Source: Azolla caroliniana
Lineage: Eukaryota; Plantae; Polypodiophyta
DNA length: 64,000 bases
Assembly (NCBI GenBank): GCA_043228905.1
Contig: JBHGNT010000001.1
Span: 24,490,001 to 24,554,000 of the forward strand
Reading direction: 5' to 3'
The notes under the pieces were generated by a model. That model did no database searches and was not told the origin of the DNA. It worked only from the letters and a program-made list of their open reading frames with translations. Numbering within the stretch: the stretch's first letter is position 1; every line of letters begins with the position of its first letter. A program made the position numbers and the translations under genes. This document shows, piece after piece, positions 768-64,000 of the stretch.

Positions 768-1190
768 TGTCATGATATGGCAAGACTCGAACCCATGACC
801 TTATGGTATATGGGTCGAACTCTTAACCATCACACCATCTATTGTAATTCATAGGATATTATTTTCATTTATGTTTTATTATAAGAAAGTAATGTATATT
901 CCAGATTTCTCTGGAACATTCTAGAAGTTTCAGGATTACTCTTGACAACACTATAAAAGAAGGCACTAGGCATTATGTTGAACCAAATTGGTTCAACGCT
1001 AGTCTTAAGCCTCTCAGCCGCTTTGTACTTAATTTTTCACATAAAATATTAGCTGCTGTCATCATCTTTCTCTCTCTCTCCTCTTCTCACTTCCTCTCTC
1101 GGGAATCTTACGCAGTCCCGTCCTCTTAGTACTAATAGTACTTCTCTTCTTAGTACTAATTCCATCTCTACTTTAGTACTATTCCTAACA
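768..1190 (+). repeat. G1 3' LTR
   Basis: TG...CA ends, directly after PPT 755-767, TATA ctataaaag near 951. Confidence 0.8.
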
Positions 1191-26658: not shown

Positions 26659-28913
26659 CCTTTTCGCACACCCTTTTTAGCATGCATGTACCTAAGCCAA
26701 CCCACGCTTTTAGCACACCCTTTTTAGCTAAACCAACCCAAATGGATACTTTTATATCGACTATAAATTGAGCACAAAGTAAGAAGCTAAGTAGGTTGGT
26801 TTTGATCTCTTATGTGCATATCACAATATACTCGAGAAATATCTCTAGAATATACTCATCTAGAATATACCATAGAATATTTCTAGAATATACTAAAGAG
26901 TAGAATATTCTGAATGATATGCTAGACTATACAATTTTAAACCATATATAACTTACATGTAACTTAAGGGTTTTCAAATGGTTTATCTAATACTAAGTAT
27001 TGGGTGTGTTATAGGTTAGAGGTTCGAGCCTAGATGTGACATTATCCCCCTTCTTACGCCACCTTCCCAAACCGGTACCAGAGATGAAAATCCTGGACCA
27101 CCTCCGGGGCATTTTGTAAATTCGTCCCTAGTTCCCACATGGCGTCAGAAAGGGGGTAACCCTTACACAAGACGAGGTATTGCAGGTGTCAATGGTGCAA
27201 ACGTGAGTCAAGTATTTGGTCGATCTCATATTCCTCCCCTATCGTCAACTGCACATGTGGTGGTGGGGGGGGCCTAGCATCTTGGGAGTTGCGAAGCATA
27301 ATGGGGTTCGAGGAGGGAGACATGAAAAACATCATAAATCTGGAAGTGGGATGGAAGGGCCAGCCGGAAGGTGACGAGATTGATGTGCTCAACTATACGG
27401 AATGGTCCCAACTTCTTGTAATCAAGTTTTGCACATGGACGGGTAGTAGAGATCTGCCGTCGTAACAACCAGACCATGTCGCCGACGACAAAGGGTGGAG
27501 TGGCAGAGCGATGGCGATCACGTGCTTCTTGTATCGTTCGCTAGCAAGACGAAGCTCTAAAGATAAGTCATGATGTAGCTCTTCTAAAATGCAGGCTCCA
27601 CCCTCTACAGAAGGGTTCACTAAAGTGGTAGGGAGGGAAATTTTGAACAATGGATGTAAACCATAGTTTTCAAAGAAGGGAGTGACGCCAGTCGATGGAT
27701 GGAGAGAATTATTGTGGGCGAATTCAACTAGTGAAAGTAAGCTGACCCAATCAACTTGTTGGTAACTAATCGAGCACCGAAGATATTGCTGAAGGATTTG
27801 GTTGACGTACTCCGTCTGACCGTCAGTTTGGGGGTGATAGGCGGAGGACAACTTGATGGAGATACCTAAAGTGTGTCGCAGGCACTGCCAGAGGTGAGAG
27901 ACAAACTGGGGTCAATGGTCGGAGATGACATCATCAGGGAGTCCATGCAAACAAACCACATTGTTGAGGAGTAGATGTGCCATTCCTTCACCGGAAATGG
28001 TTTCTCAGCATGGAGTGAAGTGAGCCATCTTTGTAAACCGATCAACACTGACCAACACCAAGTCATAGATATTGACCAAGTGTAGATCGGTGATTAGGTC
28101 CATAGAGATAAAGGCCCAGGGATGACAAGGGCATGGAAGCAACTGGAGTAAGCTGTATGGCCGATGATGAGCAACTTTGGAGCGAGCACAAACCTCACAA
28201 GTCTTGATGTATTCTTTGAAAAACTTCCATGGTTTTGGTCACCGGTACCCTCGAGAGATTAGTTCGAGGGTTTTGGCAACCCCGAAATGACCTGCAAGGG
28301 GGTCATCGTGGCATTCTTGCAACACCCGGGTGCGACACGGGCCCTCCGGGACGTATAAGAGATGATCTCGGAATAGCAAACCATCTTGTATGGTGAAACA
28401 GTCAAGGTCCATCTAGTTGGGTGTTGTGGGGGGGTGTTGCATCGATTGTGGATGCATTAGTGATCTGTTGGAGTAATGAATCATCCTGCAACATACTAGT
28501 GGCAAAAAGATGCAATTGGTTGGGTTTCAACAAACAACGAGATTGTTGAGCATGTGCGACATCCCTGGGGCGGATTGCAAGTTTGGCTTGACGAGAAAGG
28601 GCATCAGCCTTCGCATGTTGGCCACCAAGTCGAAATATGATCTCAAAATCATAGTCAACGAGAAATGTATATCTCAAGTGTGAATTTGCGGGAGTAGTAG
28701 GCCACTGGGTGCATTATGTTGGTGTCGTTGGCTTGGGATAAGATGGCGCGAATTGCGAAGTTAGAGGCATCGGTTTCGACTTGGAAGGGTCTTGTGGGGT
28801 CGGCATGTAGAAGCACGGGGGCAAAATGATGAATTCGTGTTTGAGAGAGTCGAACACATTTTGTGCCACCGAGGTCCATAAAAAGGGATTACGTTTGTGG
28901 GAGAGGGCGATAA

Positions 28914-41307: not shown

Positions 41308-44027
41308 GTCACATGTCATAAGTATGGTGATAAAAACATAACTATAGAAGATAACTTATCCTAATGGTATATGCTTCGTCCTTGGTGTGTGAGGTTATGG
41401 GTTCAAGTCTCTCAAATGTTACTTAATGAAATATTGAAGTTTATTTTTATATCGTGAAGCAAATCCTTCACGACACCCACCCCCTCTGAACTTGCACATT
41501 GGATGTGCAGAGTTCATCCAATATCTTGAAAAAACTCTTCATTCCCTTTCCAAATTGGATGTTCCCTAAAGCACTCTTTGTTTCTTTCATGGTTAGGCCT
41601 CATGGTTAAGAACTGTACTGTCTTCCTTCCATCCTGACTCTTGATCCTCGTGAAACCCAAGCTATCATCAATCACGTTTGTTTCCATCTTTACTACATTG
41701 ATGTATGGTTGACGAAGGATGGCAGGGTAGGTTGATCTATCCTGCACAAAGAAATTTTGAACCACCGACACATCTCCCATTGTTACTTTCACACTGGGAC
41801 ATGCTCCGAACATATCCTCCGTAGTCTCCGTGGCAACTCTTATTTTCCACCCATGATTCTTGTCGATTAGCCACCATCCTTGAGCATAAAATTCCGATGA
41901 AATCATGTAACTAATCTCTGATCCATGATCGATCAAAGCAATACATGGAATTTGTTGCTTCCTAATTTTTGTAGGTGCCTCTATTGTTGCTCGAGCCCAA
42001 TGGTCCCTTGTATAATGACTTCTATCCCCTTCATGAATCCCAACATCATTTATCTTCTTTAAACTTGCACCATTAATTGTGCCACGATCCAAATCTTGGA
42101 GTGTTGTTGCACACCCTCCCGTAACTTCTTCCATCAAATGTTTTATATTTGTCACAACTTCTGTGTCTGAAGCAAGCTTGAAAGTTGGGCTTGTCTTCCC
42201 TTTTACTTTATTCGTTTCTTTTGACTCAGGAGCATCCTTTTCCATCTCTCTTCTCTCTTGTTCTTGTGTCTCATGCATTTTAGCTAGATTAGCCTCCTCA
42301 TCCCTCTTTTGCTTCTCTTCCACTAGTACATCTTATGCATTCACTTAGGTGAATGCTGATAGTGTGTTTACCGGATCATTCCATCCAGTGAAGTTTCATA
42401 TTTCATCACCCACGCTTTTTAATTCGTCCATTCGAACCTTCCCTTTTCTTTCATACTCCATCACATCTTGCCAAAAGCTAGATCCACCATATGAGTCTTC
42501 TACTCGTAACCCTAAGGTTGTCACAAATTGTATTGATTGAATTGTTTTTATCTCAGCATCTTTCATTAGCTTTTTTATTCCACCTTGCCCGAAGTTGAGT
42601 AGGAGTGGTTCTCGTGTCTCGGTTGAGTGAATCTTACCATCTTGATAGTATATTTTATCATGATTAAGAACATCCCTATGTTCTTGATAATCTTTCTTTT
42701 GGTGGTCGACACTATCACACCACATACACCTTCGGACAATGCCACCTCCTTGCCTTGACAAAGTTGAGCTTTGTCCCAATTCCAACTTCGTCACTTTAAT
42801 CGACAAGTCTTTCTTGCCTTTCACCAATTCGTGCAAGAGTGACTCTTCTATTTTCTTCTCTCTCGAGTCATTCCCTGTTTCGTCTCCCTTCCTCTCCGAC
42901 AGCTCCATAAACCTTAACTTTCTTTTATAGAAATGGGCGCAAGCCCTTTTCACCTCCCCCTAGTCTTCTATAAGTCCACCCAGACTATTTGGATCTTCTA
43001 GAAGCATTCCCAAGTCCTTGTCTTTAATATTAGTAGCTTGTAGAAACAATATTACTTTATCTAGCATTATTATATTTCTATCTCTAACATTTAATTGTTC
43101 AAATCTTTTTGAAAATTCTTTTAACACTTCCAAAACACTTAAATATTTATCAGACTCTACCCAATCCATGAAAGCTTGCCTTATCATCCTTGACATATCG
43201 TTGAGGTTGTATTCATTCAGTAATGCTCTTTCGAACGTTGCCCATGTATGATGCTCCCTCTATAGCTCCTACCTTTCTTGTAGCCCAATCGTAGCGACTC
43301 GACGAAAGCTATTAATTTTTGCGGCTTCATCGATGCCTTGTTTAAGCATTTCCTCATTGTAAATCTTTAGAAATCTTGTTAAATTCATACCTTCGAAGAT
43401 TCCTACTCGTGTGAGAATATTGTCGACGACTTTGTCGATGCTTGCCATCATTCCTTGCTCCCGCATCATTCGTTCCATCCTTGTACACATAAGCCTCATT
43501 TGCTCCTCCATTTTTCCTTCACGCTGCCTTCACGTCGGGTTCACCAAATGTGTCGGGGTAGTTGTGGTTCATGTGGCGAAGTCGCATGGACTAATGTTAA
43601 AAGGAGTTGGCTATATATTTTATAAGGCTTATGCAACAATGTTAGAAAGATTATGGATAGGAAGAACCAAAGTTAGAAGTAATGTGTGAGAGACAGATGA
43701 GCATAGATAAGAGATAAGAGACAATGTATGATTTAAAAGTTAATTCCTTGCCTCTCTTTATAGGTTCTCTCATGCATATGATGATATGGGGGTTGCATGG
43801 TATACATGTAATGCATGTGATGCATGATAGCCATCATGCTCATCTAAGCTCTAATGTATGAAGATACACATGTCATAAGTATGGTGATAAAAACTTAATC
43901 ATATAAAATAATTTATCCTAATGGTATATGCTTCGTCTTTGGTGTGTGAGGTTATGGGTTCTCTCAAATGTTACTTCATACAATATTGAAGTTTATTTTT
44001 ATATTGTGAAGCAAATCATTCACGAAA
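41308..44027 (-). mobile_element. P2: TR-GAG-like element (gag + CCHC + protease only) of the Trp-primed Gypsy group
   Basis: Perfect Trp PBS cacgtcgggttcacca 43531-43546; 5' LTR 43551-44027; left-truncated 3' LTR 41308-41475; PPT 41476-41487; PR ALIDHGSE; ORF stops about 25 nt before the PPT. Confidence 0.88.
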
Positions 44028-44178: not shown

Positions 44179-46663
44179 GGAGGACTATCAAGGCGTGGGT
44201 TCGCGATAGTCTGGACAACCAGAAGAAACCCCACACCTGTACCATAGGTAGGAAATTTTGGCCCTCTGTTAATGGAGGTTGTACGATAACCGGCATCGGT
44301 GGCCAAGAGAAGAAACAAGTCGAAGGACGCTTGAAGGCATGCGACGCCTTAGGCTCCGACGACGATATCAGTGGCGCCATGGAGGTGGTCTCATTCGATG
44401 ACACCCTCGGGGAGATTGAGAAGATAGTCGAAGAGGATCTTAGCGAAGACTGGGTCGTTTTGATAAATTCTGTGAAGATGTACGAAGTCACTACGGACTT
44501 CGGGAAGATGATCCGTTCGGATCAAACTGCCTAAGTAGACACCAAGTACAAGACTGTGGACAGAAAGGTGAGGCCAGTCGCGGCTCCCTTGCCGGAGGAC
44601 AACTAGGAGAGGATGAGAGGGGTCACGACGGACCCAAGTTTACGAGATCCTTCCAGCATAGGACACCAGTTCACCGATGAGATGTTGCGGAAACTCAAGA
44701 TCGGTGGGGGTGGCTTCCTACTGGCAGCGGAGGAGGACCGGTTTCGGAGGATGCTCGAAAGGCACGGGAAAGCCTTTGCATTCTGGCCGGTGGAGATCGG
44801 GTGCGTAGACCCGACTATCGTAGAACCAATGGTGATCTTCACAGTGCCGCATGTGTCATGGAGTCTCAAACTAATTTCAGTACCGAGGGCTCACATCCCA
44901 AAGTTGATGGAGCTGCTCAAGCAGAAAGTGGAGATGGGCATCCATGAACCGTCGAGTGCTCCTTATATAAACCAGTGGTTTATGGTATCGAAGAAAAATG
45001 GCACATTGCGTTTTATTCAGGACTTGTCGTCGGCCAACAAGGTGACCATTCGAAATGTAGAAGTCGGCCCAACAATCGATGAGTTCGCGGAGGCCTTCGC
45101 CGGAAGGTCTATCTACTCAGTCAATGATTTATACTATGGGTATGACCAGTTCCAACTAATCGTGGAGAGTAGAGACATCACGATAATGTGAACCCCACTC
45201 GCCTTAGTTTAGATGTGTAGCCTACCGCAAGGAGGGACCGATTCGATGGCACACATGGTGAACGCAATGAATAAAGTGTTGAGGGATTGCATTCCGGACA
45301 TCACCATGCTGTTTTTGGACAACATCCCGATCAAGAGATGTCCAGAGGACACTAAGGACGAGTCGATCGAAGCAGACGGTTTCGGAAGTTTGTCACAGAC
45401 CACATCTCCGACTGCGAGAAAATAGGGCACAGACCACAGGCTTGAGGGCACTGGGCTTACCTTCTCCGGGGAGAAGTCAACTTTCGGACAACCAAAGATC
45501 TTGGTGGTCGGACACCTATGCATACCATACGGCCGAAAACCGTCTCCGGCAAAGGTAGAGCCCATCTCGACGATGATGGAAGAGTGCGGGTCGGTCACGG
45601 AAGTCCGATGATTCCTCAGAGCGTGCGCCTTCTACCACATTTGGATCCCACACTACGGTCACCTCTCCGAACCGCTCTATGGGTTGTTGAAAAAGGGTCA
45701 GAAATTTGAATGGAACAACGAGCACACGGAGTCAGTCCGGAGACTGAAGGAAAAGCTAACTTCGGCACCGGCTCTCCTGAAAGTGGTGTACCACAAGAAC
45801 ACTCTAGTTTACGTGATAGTGGATATGAGTCTGACCGGAATTGGATGGGTGGTTAATCAGGAAGACGAGGACGACGTACAGTTCCCCATCCGGTTCGGTG
45901 CGAAGATGCTAAGCGAAGATACGCCCAAGTTAACACGAACTCTAGGGTATCGTTTCGGCGATTAGGGCTGATAAGTGACGAGAATATGCGGAATAATCTT
46001 CGGCCACAACCGAGACTTAGATCAGTTAATGATAATCAAACACAAAAAGGAGAAATGGAAGTAAGTACACAAACAGAAGAGAATGCATAGGATGTTTAAC
46101 GTGGAAAACCCTAAACGGAAAAAAACCACGGGAGTCCACAAACTCCAAGCTATCACTATGTCAAAGAGGAATACAACAGGGGAACATAGAGGCAACGACC
46201 TCGTGCCCACAATCTTCGCCTGGCGGCGGTTACAACAGAGACTCTCTTTGTCTCTCTCTTTGTCTCTCCTTCCCTCTGCTATGCTCTATACAACAATTAC
46301 ACCAATAACACTATACAACAAATAATGACAACAACAATGATACACACACACCCTTAAGAGTTTGCCGTAGGTCATATTTATACTAATATGACTTTTGGGC
46401 TATTTACAAATATAGCCCTAGTGGGCTCTTTGGAACATATTTACATATATGTCCCTTCATCCGGTGAGAGGTTCTCACCGGGCCTGCATCATCTGGTTCT
46501 CACCGGGTCTTCCTTGCCGGGTACTCATATCCCATCCGGAGGGACTGAAATCCTAACAAACTCCCCCTTCACTCCGGCATCAGATGCCTCATCAATCCGA
46601 TCCTCTTTCAACATACGTCTAGCTTGTCGGGTGTTAGCACCTTGGTCAGCATGTCTGACCCGT

Positions 46664-56015: not shown

Positions 56016-58424
56016 GATAACACTTGGTCCTTCGTCTTCAGCGGTGTGGTCCACAACTTCCAGTTGTGGTCATCTATGAACGTCACGAAGTACTGCGCTC
56101 CGGCATGTGACTTCGTGTCTACTTGACACACATCGGTATACACCAGCTCCAGTGGTGCATTACGTCTCATCGGTGGCCTTGATCGGAAGGAGGTTCGGTT
56201 TTGCTTACCGGCCAGTCAGTCGGTGCACCTCTCAAGATGCACGTCCTTTACCAGTATTCTCCTCCGTTATCTGCTCAAACTGCCTTCAGCTTCCGGCCGG
56301 TTTCTCTTTCCACTCTCGCATGGAGCTCTTTGAAGACGGATAACACCTGATCCTTCGTCTTCAATGGTGTGGCCCACAGCTTCCGGCTGTGGTCATCTAT
56401 GAACGTCACGAAGTACTGCGCTCCGGCATGTGACTTCGTGTCCACTTGACACACATCAGTATGCACCAACTCTAGTGGTGCATTACGTCTCATCGGTGGC
56501 CTTGATCGGAAGGAGGTCCGGTTTTGTTTACTGGCCAGACAATCAGTGCACTTCTCCAAGTGCACGTTCTTCACTAGAATGAGGTTGTCGTCTGCAAGCC
56601 TCTTCATCCCCTTCTCACTCATGTGACACAACCTCTTGTGCCACAGCTCACCGGCAGTGTCGAATGCAACGTTCAATTCCTCGGGACATAACCGGGCATT
56701 CATCAGGTACAACGTGTTGACCTTCCAGGCCCGAGCCACAATCAAGCTCCCTTTGCTGAACTTCATGACACCGTGTAGCCTTCATCGTCTAGCCGACCAG
56801 CTGATATCAGGTTCAGTCGAACATCCTTTAGTAGCAACTTGCATCCGGTTGGTGTTGACAGCCACACGTCTACTATGCCGACAATTCGGCATGTCCCTTC
56901 ATTCCCCATCCAGACACAGCCGTGATCACTGGCCGTGTAGGATGAGAAGCATTTCCGGTCTGGGGTAAGGTGGAATGACGCTCCGGAATCGACAACCCAC
57001 ATTGTCTCGTCACTGGCCAGGTTCAACTCACTCTCCTCGGTGATGAGCATCAACTCCTCTTCACTTGCCACGATTGCCTTCGTTCCCTTCCGGTCTTTAC
57101 CGTTCCGGTTTGGTGACCGCTTTGAATCGGTACTGTCGGTTCCTTTTTCTTTCCGGAAATGCCGACAGTTCTTCTGGAAGTGACCCGACTTGCCACAATA
57201 GAAGCAAGTGGGCCTCCCCCTTGACTTTGACCGTGGCCCCGACTTTTCCCGATTCTGGGGACTCTGATTCCTTTGTCTTCCGCGTTCCGATTTGGTAAGG
57301 AGTGCTTTGGAGTCAGAGCTCATATCCTTGTCTTTTCGACGAGCCTCCTCATCTAGCAAGCTCGACTTGACTCTTGCTAGGGATAATTGTTTCCCTTCCG
57401 GCCCGGCGTTGCCCAAAGTAACAACCAACAGCTCCCAGCTATCCGGGAGGGAACCGAGCAAGAGTAGTGCTAGTACCTCATCGGCAAGAGGTACTTCCAA
57501 CGATGTTACCTGGTGAATCAGCCCCTGGAAGGTATTCATATGCTCTGCCATGCTGGAGCCATCTTGGTACCGGAGCCGCACTAGCTTCCGGAATACCTAA
57601 ACCCAATTAACAACATTTTTGTTCTGAAACATAATGCCAATCTTCTCCCAAAGCTCATGATCCTTGCTCTCTTCATTGAAGTTGTTGTACAAGCTCATGT
57701 CGATGAAGCACCAGATGTATGCCGTCGTCTTCATGTGCATCACCTCCCACACTGTGGCGTCAATCTTGTCCAGTCTCTTGTCCCCGAACTAAACCGGCAA
57801 CCAAAGATCTTTCACCACGAGCATGTCCCTCATCTTCGACTTCCACACTGAGTAGTTGGATTCGGTGAGCTTGAACATGCCTCCCAATGAATCTTCCATT
57901 TTTTGTGTCATTCCACTCTGATACCAGTTTGATGAGAATATGCGGAATAATATTCAGCCACAATCAAGACTTAGATCACTTAATGATAATCAAACACAAA
58001 AATGGAGAAATGGAAGTAAGTACGCAAACAAAAGAGAATGCATAGGATGTTTAACGTGGAAAACCCTCAATGGAAAAAAACCACGGGAGTCCACAAACTC
58101 CAAGCTATCATTATGTCAAAGAGGAATACAATAGGGGAACACAGAGGCAACGACCTCGTGCCCACAATCTTCGCCTAGCGGCGGTTATAGTAAAGACTCT
58201 CTCTGTCTCTCTCTCACTCTCTCTTTCCCTCTGCTACGCTCTATACAGTAGTTACACCAATAATACTATACAACAAATAATGACAACAACAATGATACAC
58301 ACACACCGTCAAGAGTTTGCCCTAGGTCATATTTATACTAATATGACTTTCGGGCTATTTACAAATATAGCCCAGTGGGCTCTCTGGAACATATTTACAT
58401 ATATGTCCCTTCATCCAGTGAGAG

Positions 58425-58600
58425 GTTCTCACCGGGCCTGCATCATTCGGTTCTCACCAGGTCTTCCTTTCCGGGTACTCATCATCCGGTTCTCATCGGG
58501 TCTTCCATTGCCGGGTACTCATCATCCGGTTCTCACTGGGTCTTTCGTTGCCGAGTACTCATCATCCGGTTCTCACCAGGTCTTCTGTTGTCGAGTACTC
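58425..58600. repeat. 40-bp tandem repeat expanded in the A4 5' LTR
   Basis: catcatccggttctcaccgggtcttccgttgccgggtact x4 versus x1 in the 3' LTR; LTR lengths 703 vs 583. Confidence 0.88.
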
Positions 58601-60138
58601 ATATCCCATCTGGAGGGACCGAAATCCTAACAATAAGGACTATTTGATTGAGGCGGAAGTAATCATCGAGACGGACTGCCTGCCAATTCTCGGCATGGTT
58701 TCCAGATGCACGACTTCGGACCTGGCAATGCTCAGGTGGATCACGTACCTAAAGTCCCTGAATCTGGAGATTCCCTGAATCTGGAGATACGGCACATCTC
58801 CGGAAAAGACAACGTCATGGCCGATATGCTTTTGAGAGCACAGTTCGACAACGAGCATGGCATGGTGTCTGAAGATGAAGAAGTCGGCGAGGACTTCTTC
58901 GAGTCGGCCCGACTTAGGGCGAGCAGATGGGGCACTCCGGCCGTGAGTGAGTTTGACGAGACCAACTACAATGGGGAGTGGCTTCTAATCAGGCGATTCC
59001 TAAGTACGTTGACGCCAGACGCAACATGGACGAAGAAAGAAATGAGCCGGATCCGAAACAAGGCTTACTGGTTCTTCCTACGGAACAATAAGATATGGAA
59101 GCATCCGAAGAGACGGACCAGCACACCACTCTGGGTGGTGACGAAGAAAGAAGTGCAGGCTATGTTGCTATCAAAATTTTACGAAAGCCCTTGGTCCGGA
59201 CACCTAGGAACATGGGCCACATTCGAGAAGCTAAAGGAGAAGCATTTGTGGCCGAGGATGTATCGCGACGCTCATCATTTCGTGGCAACATGCGAAAGCT
59301 GCCAGATTCATTCTGGTGTCCGGCACTGCGAGAGCTGGACCCAACCTACCCACCAACCATTCACTTCAAGTGGATGGTCGATTTAGTGACGATTGTCAAT
59401 GGGGATAGGGCCAATGCGGTACCTGGTGCTTGCAAGAGAAGACTTGACGAATCAGGTGGAGGGTCGAGCATTGACCAACAAGACAACCGCAGCCGTATGC
59501 CGATTTCTGATCGAAGATGTGATTTGTCGGTATGGGAGCTGGACGTGCAAGAAGACGAGGAGTTGTTTGACCGACTAGGGGTAAAACTCTCTATCACTAC
59601 ATCTTACAATCTGGAAGCCAATGGGAAAATCGAGAGATCTCTGACACTAATCATGATGTAATGGTCTCCCCTTGTGTTATAAAAGGGGTGGCTTGAGCCT
59701 ATTTTAGAAATCCGCGTTTTGGGAGTGTCAAGCTCTCTGTCTCTCTGTCTCTCCCTCGCTCTCTGTTTTTCTTGTGTGTGTTCCATGTTGATCTGGGAAG
59801 AAGGCGAAGCCTTTGCTCACGCAAGAAGCCTGTGAGCTACCGACCAGAGGTTCATCGTTATGTGGGTGTTCGTGGTAGCCGTAGATAGGAGCACCATTGC
59901 CAACCAAGTCCTGTTGTATTCTTTCATTCTCTGTTAATCATTAGTGTTTTGTTGTGTTTCTTCTTATGTTGGGTATTTCCGCGTAGTTCCTACTTGTTGC
60001 AGTTCACTATGCGCCCGGGATCGTGTTGTTATTCCCGTTCTGTCTCTGTTGTGTATGTGTCCGAGTCCGTCGGCCCGTGAGCTCATTACTGTTGTCTGGC
60101 ATTCTGATTAGAACAATACACTTCTTCGGGCCCATGCG

Positions 60139-61990
60139 CTAACCAGTCGGGATGTGGGAATCATTTCGGATCGGACACGCATCCGAAAACCGAACCAGCG
60201 AAACCATCCGGACATCGTCCCGGGGCGCCTTCTCCCTTACCAACTCCTTGGTCTGAGACCCCGATGGTCCTACCCCATTTCTACACATGCGTGCGGATTT
60301 CCGCAACAACATAAGTTGACTATTGAGGTGGTCAATTTCCTCCTCCTTTGACCGAAACATGCCCTGAAGTTTACTTTGGAACTCGTCCAGAGTCGATCCT
60401 TCATGTTTTGTACTTTGGACTCCGCCTCTTCTATTCTCTTATTGGCGCATTCTATTAACTTTCCTTTCTCCTATAGTTGATCCCATAAATGTTGATCGGG
60501 TACATGTGGGATCTCTGTTTCACTTTTTTGGAGACGTTCCTCCTTTACCTTTAGCACCGTCTCTACTTGTTTTAGTCTGGTCATTAATTCTTCATTAACT
60601 GTTTTGACTGCCGCCCACTCTTTGTGCATATGTTCGGACGCTGATGTGGTACGCTTGTAGACTTCGGCTATCTCCTTGGCCTCACAAGTTGTTTTAGCCA
60701 ATTCCTGATGCACTTCGACCAAGGAGGCATTTGAATTGCCATACCTTATTTCTTGGCATCTCGTTGTCAATTGATTTGTTCTAGCTCTCATTCCTCCTCC
60801 GGCTCTAGTGCACCGAGCATTGCATGTTGGATCATTTCCCTGTCCTTGTGTTCCTTCCCCAATTGATCGGAAGCAAACTGTAGACGCTTCACAAACCAGT
60901 CCACCAGCTCATATTGATGTGACAAAACATAGTATGATCGTGATTTCATGAGCCGCTAGTGGTATATCTGGTATCCCTAGGACCTCGTTCAGGGATATTT
61001 CCGACGTTTTCCCTCACTCCATAGTTCCTCTCGGAACGTATTCAACTAGTTTGATAGTCGTTGTTGGTCTATCGTTCTGTTGTTGTTGTTCGGCCGACTA
61101 CTTCTTTCCGACTTTGGTCTTCTTTGCTGATCGTCTTGTTTCCTGATTTAGTTGCTTGGTGTCGGCTTGTTGTGAGGCTAACCGTCACTTCTCTTAAGGA
61201 AGTGGTGGCGGTACCACTATGTTGTCTAGGTGTAGTTCCTCCCGCGTACAAGGAAGTTGTTGTTCACCACTAATGGGTTGGGGTTGGTTCCTTGCTTCTT
61301 TTTGTGGTTGTTTTCCTGTTTCCTGACTTTCTTGCCACTTCTCTTGTGGTTGTATCAATATCTTTCTTCTTGCCAACTACTGCGGCAATGCCCGTGGCGA
61401 CTGGTCGTGGGCATAGTATGCTTAGCCACTGTGCAAAGATTGGCTTCATGGGTTTTCCTTGTCTAACTCCATGTACTTGCTCCCGAAGTGCGACTCCAAT
61501 AATGAGCCCCCAATCGATTGTCTCTCCTTCATATGTGGCAACTACTGCGGCAATGCCCGTGATGACTACCCCTGTTCCTTTTCCAGGGTCTGACGTCCTT
61601 GTGTGGCGACTGGTCGTGGGCATAGTATGCTTAGCCACTGTGCAAAGATTGGCTTCATGGGTTTTCCTTGTCTAACTCCATGTACTTGCTCCCGAAGTGC
61701 GACTCCAATAATGAGCCCCCAATCGATTGTCTCTCCTTCATATGTGGCAATAATGAATCTGGCCCTCTGCTTGGGCATGCAATATGAACATGGACTGACA
61801 CAAACTACTTCCAATAAAAATTTTGCAACATTATGGAAAAACATATATTTACCCCCTTGTGTTCGGTACGCTTTGGCCAAAGGGGAATACTCACTGAAAT
61901 AGGATTCAAGAACGTCAGTCCTGACCGCTATCGTGAAGATTCCAAGCCATCAGGGGAAACGTCGCCAAATGCATGGGAACACAGGTGTAC
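60139..61990 (-). pseudogene. Decayed extra ORF with coiled coil, probably an accessory antisense ORF of an LTR element
   Basis: Fragments IDWGLIIGVALREQ, a K/T-rich linker and a heptad-rich C-terminus (60471-60791); flanked by related LTR-like TATA cores. Confidence 0.5.
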
Positions 61991-62019: not shown

Positions 62020-62485
62020 TGTAAGTACTAGGTGTCGGTAGGTTTTGTGGATTACTAGGAAGTTAGGCACTATTAGAGGATTTAATATTGCATGGGTAGG
62101 GACACGGAAACAAAGGTGAGATAGCGAGAGCACATCAAGAAGAGAATCTAGGAGAGAATATCGAGGAGTCATTAAACCTGATGTAACGGCTACTCCTTGT
62201 GCTATAAAAGGGGAGGCCCCAGACTGTTTGAGGTATCATTGTTTTCCTTGAGAAGCAGAGGACGCTACCGAATAGGAAGAAGTAGCTCGCTCACTCATTC
62301 TCTTCTGAACCTCTACAACCAAACCTTGGGAGGAACCCTTGGCTCATGTCAGACGCACGCGCGCTCCCGGCCAGAGGTCCCCTTTTTCCGTGTGTTTGCT
62401 CTAGAGCTCGAAGCTCTGTTCCCGGCTCTGACCGGTTGTATTCCCTGTGCTTCATGCGCGTTGTCGTAGTGTAATTCCCACACTA
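62020..62485 (+). repeat. LTR-like fragment related to the P3 LTR
   Basis: tgatgtaacggctactccttgtgctataaaagggg matches tgatgtaatggtctccccttgtgttataaaagggg near 59654. Confidence 0.5.
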
Positions 62486-62717
62486 CGTGAAAATTGCAAT
62501 ATTGTCCCTCCGGATGGAACCGGCAACGAGGAACCGGTGAGAACTGGATGAAGGATGGAATCGGTAAGGAGGAACCGGTGAGAACCGGATGAAGGATGGA
62601 ATCAGCAAGGAGGAACCAGTAAGGAGACCCAGTAAGAACCGGCATGAGCCGGATAAAGAAGGCTGGTGAGAGTCTCTCACCGGATGAAGAGACAAATTTG
62701 TAAATAGAAGAAAAGAT
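62486..62717 (+). repeat. Fragment of an A-family Copia LTR in the opposite orientation, with ~40-bp repeats
   Basis: gtccctccggatgg and ccggtgagaaccggatga repeats are the reverse complement of the A4 LTR U3. Confidence 0.7.
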
Positions 62718-63183
62718 TGTTACATGCATAGGGCAAGATTCGAACCCTGTACCTCCATGTTAACGATTTTTAAGCCTTACCAATATACTAGCATATTATG
62801 AATTTTAAAGTTATACTAAACTTTATCCCATGTAAATATTCTAGATATGCATGGTACAAAAAGTTATTCATGCATACACACTCAAGTTAAAAGAAAAGAT
62901 TGGATAGAAAGCTAATCATGCACATGCAGTGTGCATGAAAACTAAAGTTAGGAAAAGCATGATGCTTGCATGTGATAAACTTAGACTCTTACAACACTAT
63001 ATAAGGAAGAGAGAAAGATGTATAGGGGTTGTTGATTTTTTATAAGGATTGATTAATACAAAATATTCGTGGGATTCATGATTTTACCATCTAATTTTCT
63101 CTTACAATCTAAGTATCCATTAATACATTATTCTCGTGGGATTCACGTGTTTCACATTTCCATCTTGCAATCTATTCGTAACA
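62718..63183 (+). repeat. Gypsy-type LTR with an antisense tRNA-like head
   Basis: tgttac...gtaaca terminal inverted repeat; TATA near 62997; A/B boxes on minus 62737-62790. Confidence 0.7.
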
Positions 63184-64000
63184 AAACTATCTCATATTCT
63201 TCTTCTCCTAGTCCAAAACATCAGTGGTTCCCACCTGACTCACACAACGATCCGAAGCCAAAAGGCACGACAACGCGTCCTAGCTACTATTGACAATCTA
63301 TTACGTTGCTTTATGTTGTTTCTTTTCCTTGTGTCGTTCTCACGTTGCCATTCTCTCGTACTGCATTGAGTCCGAAACCTACGGCCACCTCCTTCCTACT
63401 CCTCTTTGTTTGATTCACAGTGTTCCACTCGCGGGCCTCTTCCTCCTTTCTCGATTCCTTGGTTCAAGACCCCCGTGGTCCTGCCCCGTTTCTATGCATC
63501 TACGCGGAATACCGCGACACCGCATCCATCTCATTGTATCCCTCATTCTTAAGATTTAATATTCAGTGTACCTGTTTATTTGTGATTTTATTGATGTCGA
63601 TCTGTTTGATTATCTCAATCACCTATGGATGAGGTTCGGCGTCTGCTACCCGAAGATATCCCTCCAATCCACTAGTCTTCAACTAGTTTCGTAGATGTTC
63701 AGAGACCTGAATCAAGATTTCTTCGTTTTGTTCTTCATTGCCTGCTACCATGTTGTCGTCTTTGTACGAGTGTGAAAGTTGAAGTGGTCTGTGTGCTCAC
63801 CTGTTGCTCATTTCGTTTCTCCATGTTTCTCTTTTTCTGCTTTTCTGCACCCGAGTGTGCAATGTTGCTTCTCTGTGTTTTTTTGTGTTAGGAAAACGGG
63901 ATGAAAAGGTTTCTGTATAAAAGTGGGCCATAATTTGAAAAGGCACGGTGGAAAAATAGAATCTTCTATTAATGTTGTCCTTTAAGAGCCACTCCTCAAA

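What the first reader, a model, noticed from the sequence alone, without database searches (positions are those of the whole stretch)
62718..62795. Clearest tRNA-like head, in a second LTR family
The minus strand reads tgctagtatattggtaaggcttaaaaatcgttaacatggaggtacagggttcgaatcttgccctatgca. It has A box TAGTATATTGG, a canonical B box GGTTCGAATC and tRNA-length spacing, ending just before the LTR terminus. The rest of the LTR does not visibly align to G1, so the boxes appear selectively kept while the stems decayed.
Basis: partly seen in the sequence, partly recalled or inferred. Interest (0 to 1): 0.7.

Follow-up and report, generated by a model that had tools for sequence, protein, structure and literature searches.

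The report
tRNA promoters inside moss retrotransposon ends
Many protein-coding jumping genes of what is likely a moss carry, inside their end repeats, the two promoter signals of a transfer-RNA gene at tRNA spacing but without the tRNA fold, and these likely recruit the tRNA-gene transcription factor to help keep the element's own promoter open, a use not found described for such elements.

Summary
The segment is real. It is the best tRNA-type A+B box pair in the window, and 0 of 100 shuffled windows reach its score. It is not at the LTR terminus: it lies antisense, about 275-330 nt inside an 811-bp solo LTR of a coding Phygy-type Ty3/Gypsy family. It is not a separate SINE: it is whole in 31 of 37 complete LTRs picked without regard to it, and in both LTRs of 11 of 11 pairs. 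Related units occur in 20 of 49 Phygy LTRs from other assemblies (0 of 98 internal controls) and in chromovirus LTRs. They sit in either orientation and sometimes bracket the TATA box. Boxes and 43-44 nt spacing persist while the cloverleaf is lost, and no donor tRNA could be named. Most likely it is a TFIIIC/Pol III cassette serving the LTR's Pol II promoter as a chromatin barrier (inferred; no RNA or binding data). Against this, close relatives lack it and damaged boxes get copied. Closest known is Helenus, which is short and non-coding. The scan's notes had similar tRNA-like units on other DNA, but none like this sequence.

The parts
62462..63272 (+). Solo LTR (811 bp, TGTCGT...ACGACA) of a coding Phygy-type Ty3/Gypsy family, inserted in another repeat
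   Evidence: Ends defined across copies. Full elements carry RNase H and integrase, a PBS matching the genome's tRNA-Trp and a PPT. Nine paralogues of the left flank were fetched; 8 run straight into the right flank.
62458..62461 (+). Left target-site copy GCGT (4-bp NCGN site, one CpG-type change)
   Evidence: Empty-site paralogues read ...CGCGCGCG....
63273..63276 (+). Right target-site copy ACGC (one CpG-type change)
62780..62790 (-). A box TAGTATATTGG
   Evidence: Family variation mostly fits the tRNA pattern: positions 9 and 14 invariant in 30 of 30 copies, 12-13 variable, 15 always a purine.
62751..62754 (-). AGGT motif, as in the variable loop of the genome's tRNA-Thr/Asn/Trp; kept across families
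   Evidence: Column conservation 0.82-1.0 over 11 units from diverged families; tRNA sequences.
62737..62746 (-). B box GGTTCGAATC, inside a possible 5-bp T-arm-like hairpin in a shifted register (62751-62733)
   Evidence: hairpin 85% paired with some covariation.
62711..62714 (-). T4 run 22 nt after the B box; candidate Pol III terminator
   Evidence: T4 within 14-35 nt in 35 of 37 family copies; in 11 of 20 units across families, against A4 in 3 of 20 (P=0.057).
62504..62706 (+). Variable U3 tandem repeats resembling the Copia LTR at 57930-58633
   Evidence: Local alignment score 137, no shuffle control; low occupancy among family LTRs.
62997..63004 (+). TATA box of the LTR's presumed Pol II promoter, about 210 nt from the A box, which points away from it
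   Evidence: Sequence; region conserved.
784..837 (-). Related unit at the 5' end of the G1 chromovirus LTR (768 to about 1191)
   Evidence: Score 21.3; chromodomain upstream; whole in 20 of 20 copies fetched.
41357..41409 (+). Unit antisense in U3 of another Phygy-like family; relatives also carry a second, sense unit after the TATA box
   Evidence: Score 19.4.
26979..27030 (+). B box plus AGGT with a poor A box, at the LTR start of a further, probably chromovirus, family
   Evidence: Score 15.5 with A box 0 bits.

Best explanation
This is a tRNA-type A+B promoter cassette, without a tRNA fold, built antisense into U3 of a coding Phygy-type retrotransposon and copied with both LTRs; it is likely kept because it would bind TFIIIC and so help hold the neighbouring Pol II promoter open against silent chromatin. 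Shown: anatomy, family-wide presence, spread over many LTR lineages, loss of the cloverleaf, either orientation. Inferred: (1) origin from a tRNA or SINE head, more than once, then spread by exchange of LTR bodies; (2) TFIIIC binds the B box and, where the A box is good, places TFIIIB/Pol III, which would make a roughly 85-90 nt RNA ending at the nearby T run; (3) the bound complex works as a tRNA-gene-like barrier or nucleosome-poor patch for an element that lands among other silenced elements. It is one optional LTR design, not a requirement for transposition.
For: A+B pair beyond chance. Whole in 31 of 37 complete LTRs chosen by their PBS junction; the other 6 have deletions through it; no clean empty site. 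In both LTRs of 11 of 11 true pairs. Score >=15 in 20 of 49 Phygy LTRs from other assemblies (integrase 49-95% identical), against 0 of 98 internal segments and 24 of 1960 shuffles. 24 B boxes in 70.7 kb of LTR strands and 0 in 70.7 kb of internal sequence; with 30-100 nt allowed, the best A box lies at 43-44 nt for 17 of the 24. Across families only A box, AGGT and B box columns stay high. Cloverleaf 42% paired, below shuffles. Orientation varies (14 antisense, 9 sense, 3 both), and in L271, L276 and L169 outward-facing units bracket the TATA box, which suits a DNA-level role. One family keeps the B box with a poor A box. The B-box CpG decays fast in copies (17 of 28 vs 91 of 352 at other CpGs, P=0.0003) yet persists in most subfamilies, and families tend to fix the tolerated TTCAA rather than TTTGA (hand tally 8:3 vs 5:12 in copies, P=0.05). 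tRNA genes and B-box-only sites are TFIIIC-dependent barriers in yeast (PMC12409998, passages).
Against: No binding, chromatin or RNA data. 29 of 49 Phygy LTRs score below 15 (some are cut short), including a whole 12-row clade, and L283/L285, nearly identical in integrase to L277, lack the unit. C56-to-T in the B box is in both LTRs of 6 of 8 pairs, one of them 99.4% identical, so damaged boxes are copied at least once; L256, L317 and L319 carry it too. G10-to-T (5 copies) and G19-to-A (7 copies) are clade-fixed in the A box. TFIIIC tolerates 32-93 nt spacing in yeast, so the fixed 43-44 nt may be inherited or reflect an RNA constraint. The 12 nt after the B box are as conserved as the box and adjoin a CATGCA motif of the Pol II strand. 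The passages seen from a plant barrier review give TFIIIC examples only from yeast and animals.
Confidence: 0.45

Rival explanations
1. The short Pol III RNA is the selected product: an antisense or tRNA-mimic RNA with a T-arm-like hairpin that tunes the element or the host's silencing, as Pol III cassettes in foamy-virus U3 do.
For: A box kept, which matters for start-site choice. T4 follows in 35 of 37 copies. Shifted T-arm hairpin 85% paired, 3 pairs with two-sided changes, 1 of 500 shuffles as high. Spacing fixed.
Against: The hairpin was derived from these same related sequences. The window copy folds no better than shuffles (z +0.6). Canonical T-stem pairing across families is not above null (P=0.95). 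Inter-box sequence differs between families, both orientations occur, and G1 has no terminator inside its LTR.
Confidence: 0.2
2. A passenger: old tRNA or SINE insertions carried along in exchangeable LTR bodies, kept only by short time or by overlapping Pol II enhancer motifs.
For: Optional among close relatives. Partial deletions in 6 of 37 complete LTRs. Box damage is inherited. Conservation extends beyond the boxes within the family.
Against: Stems are erased by many substitutions while boxes and spacing survive in families with unrelated flanks. The hypermutable CpG survives across subfamilies. No free-standing copy among 29 similarity-picked and 11 box-picked loci.
Confidence: 0.25
3. 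An integration beacon: as Ty3 targets Pol III start sites, these elements would insert next to each other's units.
For: Some copies sit beside or inside relatives.
Against: Only 2 of 37 upstream flanks hold a unit within 500 nt, with about 1 expected from the window's density. Targeting follows an NCGN motif.
Confidence: 0.05
4. TRIMp3-like: Pol III makes the genomic RNA, as for Cassandra and as proposed for Helenus.
For: Same conserved motifs (PMC10886601).
Against: The unit is antisense, the element is about 7.1 kb and coding, a T run follows at once, and a TATA box is present.
Confidence: 0.03

Closest known systems
Helenus / TRIMp3 (Kojima 2024, PMC10886601; parts 1-4 of 6 and a word search read; supplements not read)
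   Same: [quoted passage not shown]
   Different: Helenus is 311-1263 bp and non-coding, its Pol III promoter is proposed to make the element's RNA, and the only plant case is Selaginella. The paper notes that 'not a few LTRs' have tRNA-like parts but studied only TRIMs. Here the elements are about 7 kb and coding, with a TATA box; units are mostly antisense, sometimes paired.
Phygy lineage of Ty3/gypsy (Neumann et al. 2019, PMC6317226; passages and one supplement row)
   Same: 4-bp NCGN target duplication, tRNA-Trp PBS, compact internal region, no chromodomain seen.
   Different: About 7.1-7.4 kb against a listed 7.7-10 kb. No tRNA-like LTR unit in the passages seen.
Pol III miRNA cassettes in foamy-virus U3 (PMC6950176, passages)
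   Same: Pol III units, some with A/B boxes, inside U3 of an autonomous, Pol II-driven retroelement, one to several per LTR.
   Different: Those fold into 111-128 nt dumbbell pri-miRNAs; here there is no such fold and a tRNA origin is visible.
tRNA-gene and ETC-site barriers; B2 SINE boundaries (PMC12409998 passages; PMC8136502 abstract)
   Same: B box, with or without A box, acting at DNA level as a boundary.
   Different: Shown in yeast and mammals on host loci or SINEs (the B2 abstract names CTCF). Not found described as a built-in LTR part, and untested here.
Cassandra TRIMs (as described in PMC10886601)
   Same: Small-RNA-gene promoter inside plant LTRs.
   Different: 5S-derived, non-coding, and drives the element's own RNA.

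Membership tests
Phygy (Ty3/gypsy) | RT-RNase H-integrase order of Ty3/gypsy | tested here: met
   RNase H then integrase in L035; RT itself was not hit by Pfam in the pieces scanned.
Phygy (Ty3/gypsy) | 4-bp NCGN target duplication | tested here: met
   Exact in 5 of 11 pairs, most others 1-2 changes off; also in the L031/L032 and L035 elements.
Phygy (Ty3/gypsy) | tRNA-Trp PBS | tested here: met
   PBS complements the 3' end of the genome's tRNA-Trp(CCA).
Phygy (Ty3/gypsy) | Placement with reference Phygy in an RT/INT tree | not testable with these tools
   No reference set held; the tree has no named references.
Helenus / TRIMp3 | tRNA-like A and B boxes in both LTRs | tested here: met
Helenus / TRIMp3 | Short non-coding element (about 1 kb or less) | tested here: not met
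   About 7.1-7.4 kb with gag-pol remnants.
Helenus / TRIMp3 | Pol III promoter able to make the element's RNA | tested here: not met
   Antisense to PBS/PPT, with a T run straight after it.
tRNA-derived SINE | Free-standing copies with own TSD and tail | tested here: not met
   29 of 29 and 11 of 11 loci lie in family LTRs. Both samples are small and favour close matches.
tRNA gene | Cloverleaf and covariance-model match | tested here: not met
Type 2 Pol III promoter / TFIIIC site | A and B box sequence and spacing | tested here: met
Type 2 Pol III promoter / TFIIIC site | TFIIIC binding, Pol III transcript or barrier activity | not testable with these tools
   Needs ChIP, stranded RNA or reporter data.

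The most novel reading that the evidence does not exclude
Moss LTR retrotransposons of at least two lineages have repeatedly captured tRNA promoters and trade them between LTRs as portable TFIIIC barriers, placing one or two outward-facing units around their own Pol II promoter to stay active inside heterochromatic transposon islands. That would be a selfish, element-borne insulator and a ready test of whether TFIIIC works as a chromatin barrier in plants.
Probability: 0.35. Interest if true: 0.8.

Novelty: new variant of a known kind. Interest (0 to 1): 0.62.

Why it matters
Pol III promoters in LTRs have been characterised in tiny non-coding elements (Cassandra, Helenus) and in foamy viruses. 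Here they are a recurrent, optional part of full-size coding plant retrotransposons, in thousands of copies: 1908 first-look candidates for this unit, and 2238 overlapping pattern hits for terminal B boxes against 44 for the reversed pattern. If they bind TFIIIC, they would be a way for elements to resist silencing and would scatter many TFIIIC sites over moss chromosomes. Natural relatives with and without the unit make the question directly testable in a plant with easy gene targeting.

Tried and rejected
RNA evidence: no RNA holder listed. Contigs of two guessed-RNA runs did not cover the unit. Neither is evidence either way.

Donor tRNA: the best match changed with the copy (His, Asp, Arg, Lys; Asn for G1). 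The set held only ten nuclear isotypes plus organellar tRNAs. A 15-nt A-box/D-loop stretch is identical to the genome's tRNA-Asp (13 of 100 listed matches are Asp-like genes, by hand count). No donor is claimed.

Rfam weak hits were chance snoRNA and lncRNA matches elsewhere in the region. Cloverleaf and canonical T-stem pairing were rejected. Integration-beacon enrichment was not seen. The GC difference between LTRs with and without the unit was not significant (P=0.06).

Literature: ten searches ran. Those aimed at tRNA-like or Pol III boxes in moss or autonomous plant LTRs listed nothing that describes this. The library lacks most subscription papers. A plant SINE survey I recalled was not held. 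Helenus supplements and Repbase entries were not seen and may hold such cases.

PMC7466625 (passages) has no 'tRNA' or 'polymerase III' in its main text.

Full report
OBSERVATION. The quoted sequence is on the minus strand at 62793-62725, with an A box at 62790-62780 and a B box at 62746-62737. It is not a tRNA by ARAGORN or Rfam. I built a weight matrix from tRNA genes of the same genome (ten isotype groups, one of them possibly organellar). The unit scores 23.6 bits, the best in the window; the highest score in 100 shuffled windows was 23.0. The next three hits (837 minus, 41357 plus, 26979 plus) are also in LTRs, each of a different family. The Copia LTRs and the other repeats scored in the window stay at 14 or below.

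THE HOST ELEMENT. Copies define an LTR at 62462-63272. It is a solo LTR: 8 of 9 paralogues of the left flank run straight into the right flank, and the 4-bp duplication has decayed on both sides. Full copies are about 7.1-7.4 kb, with RNase H and integrase, a PPT, a PBS that complements the genome's tRNA-Trp, and 4-bp NCGN duplications. These match the Phygy lineage described from Physcomitrella (PMC6317226, passages and one supplement row), so the host is likely a moss (inference). The unit lies in U3, antisense to the element, about 275 nt from the 5' end and about 210 nt before the TATA box, not at the terminus.

FAMILY-WIDE, NOT A SINE. I picked LTRs by their LTR-PBS junction, without regard to the unit (50 of 341 matches). 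Of the 50, 37 hold the whole unit, 6 have deletions through it, 6 are cut short before it and 1 is a different LTR (part's output was cut). Among the 37 with both ends found, 31 have it whole. I followed 20 5' LTRs for 10 kb: 12 had a downstream match, one of them probably not the true partner, and all 11 true pairs have the unit in both LTRs. All 29 other similarity-picked loci and 11 box-picked loci lie in family LTRs. A-to-B spacing is 43 nt in 33 of 37 copies, and a T4 run follows in 35 of 37.

WIDER SPREAD. An integrase search of metagenome contigs gave 80 loci (best 80 of 157; 76 from one accession series, so not independent). I left out 11 with little or no downstream sequence, and 20 more had no LTR start found or under 200 nt of LTR. 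Of 49 LTRs scored, 20 reach 15 bits (14 antisense, 9 sense, 3 both; four hits are marginal at 15.6-17.3). The controls gave 0 of 98 internal segments and 24 of 1960 shuffles. Counting B boxes alone gives 24 in LTR strands and 0 in the same length of internal sequence; the best A box within 30-100 nt sits at 43-44 nt for 17 of the 24. Carriers fall on about ten separate branches of the integrase tree, and one 12-row clade has none. Across families the conserved columns are the A box, an AGGT motif and the B box. In L271, L276 and L169 an antisense unit before the TATA box and a sense unit after it point outwards. G1, a chromovirus, has its unit at the LTR's 5' end, and a PPT-to-B-box pattern gives 2238 overlapping hits against 44 for the reversed pattern. 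These contigs are short-read assemblies of repeats and may be chimeric.

STRUCTURE AND ORIGIN. The cloverleaf is gone (42% of cells paired, below shuffles). A shifted T-arm-like hairpin is 85% paired with some covariation, but it was read off these same related sequences, and canonical T-stem pairing across families is at null. Outside the boxes, this unit is clearly related to those of L279 and L286 (integrase 65-66% identical), weakly to G1's, and not to several others. This suggests more than one capture followed by exchange. LTR bodies do appear to be exchangeable: L277, L283 and L285 have nearly the same integrase but share only 75-80 nt of LTR, and this LTR's U3 repeats resemble a Copia LTR in the window. 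The donor tRNA stays unresolved.

IS IT SELECTED? For: the B-box CpG decays in 17 of 28 copies against 91 of 352 at other CpGs, yet the intact state occurs in most subfamilies and the damaged state is scattered on the tree (8 changes for 12 copies, P=0.14). Families more often fix the tolerated TTCAA than TTTGA (hand tally, P=0.05). Against: C56-to-T is in both LTRs of 6 of 8 pairs, two A-box changes are fixed in clades, and close relatives lack the unit. That C56 is critical for TFIIIC is recalled, not from a call. The unit looks favoured but optional.

MECHANISM. An antisense unit followed by a T run cannot make the genomic RNA, which rules out the Helenus model (PMC10886601, parts 1-4 of 6). 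Free orientation, bracketing of the TATA box and a family with a strong B box but poor A box point to a DNA-level role. TFIIIC-bound tRNA genes and B-box-only sites block heterochromatin spread in yeast (PMC12409998, passages). A moss Gypsy family is reported concentrated in heterochromatic islands (PMC7466625, passages). I therefore favour a TFIIIC barrier for the LTR promoter (0.45) over a passenger (0.25), a functional short RNA as in foamy-virus U3 (0.2; PMC6950176, passages), an integration beacon (0.05) or TRIMp3-type transcription (0.03). Binding, transcription and barrier action are all untested.

NOVELTY. The parts are known, but a clade-wide Pol III cassette in coding plant LTR elements was not found in the searches run. 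Kojima mentions such LTRs in passing without studying them, and unseen supplements or Repbase entries may hold cases. The scan's earlier notes hold no look-alike of this sequence; they do hold tRNA-like units in other elements, which I did not check. Verdict: new variant of a known kind, interest 0.62.

Noticed in passing
window 62504-62706 vs 57930-58633 and 45976-46600: The Gypsy LTR's U3 tandem repeats resemble the U3 of a Copia LTR family, suggesting exchange of promoter parts between superfamilies (no shuffle control).
   Followed up: partly
L343/L344 (G000:C1 near 23624000): A Phygy internal region and its PPT run directly into a G1 chromovirus 5' LTR, with no Phygy 3' LTR seen at the junction: a precise insertion or a template-switch chimera.
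   Followed up: partly
L169:LTR, L271, L276: LTRs with two or three tRNA-type units, facing outwards on both sides of the TATA box.
   Followed up: partly
window 62723-62972: Seven CATGCA/TGCATG motifs in U3, which I recall as RY elements bound by B3 factors; some subfamilies have CACGTG at the first one.
   Followed up: no
window 63066 and 63133: Two copies of a palindrome-like motif after the TATA box, conserved with their CpGs across subfamilies.
   Followed up: no
L084: Same LTR end and Trp PBS as the family but a wholly different, GC-rich LTR body.
   Followed up: no
L036, L043, L053, L054, L194; G000:C8 and C16 hits: Nuclear tRNA genes stand in isotype-specific tandem arrays, including Lys-like genes with an Asn anticodon and Asp-like genes with a Glu anticodon.
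   Followed up: no
window 61394-61541 and 61603-61750: Exact 148-bp direct duplication.
   Followed up: no
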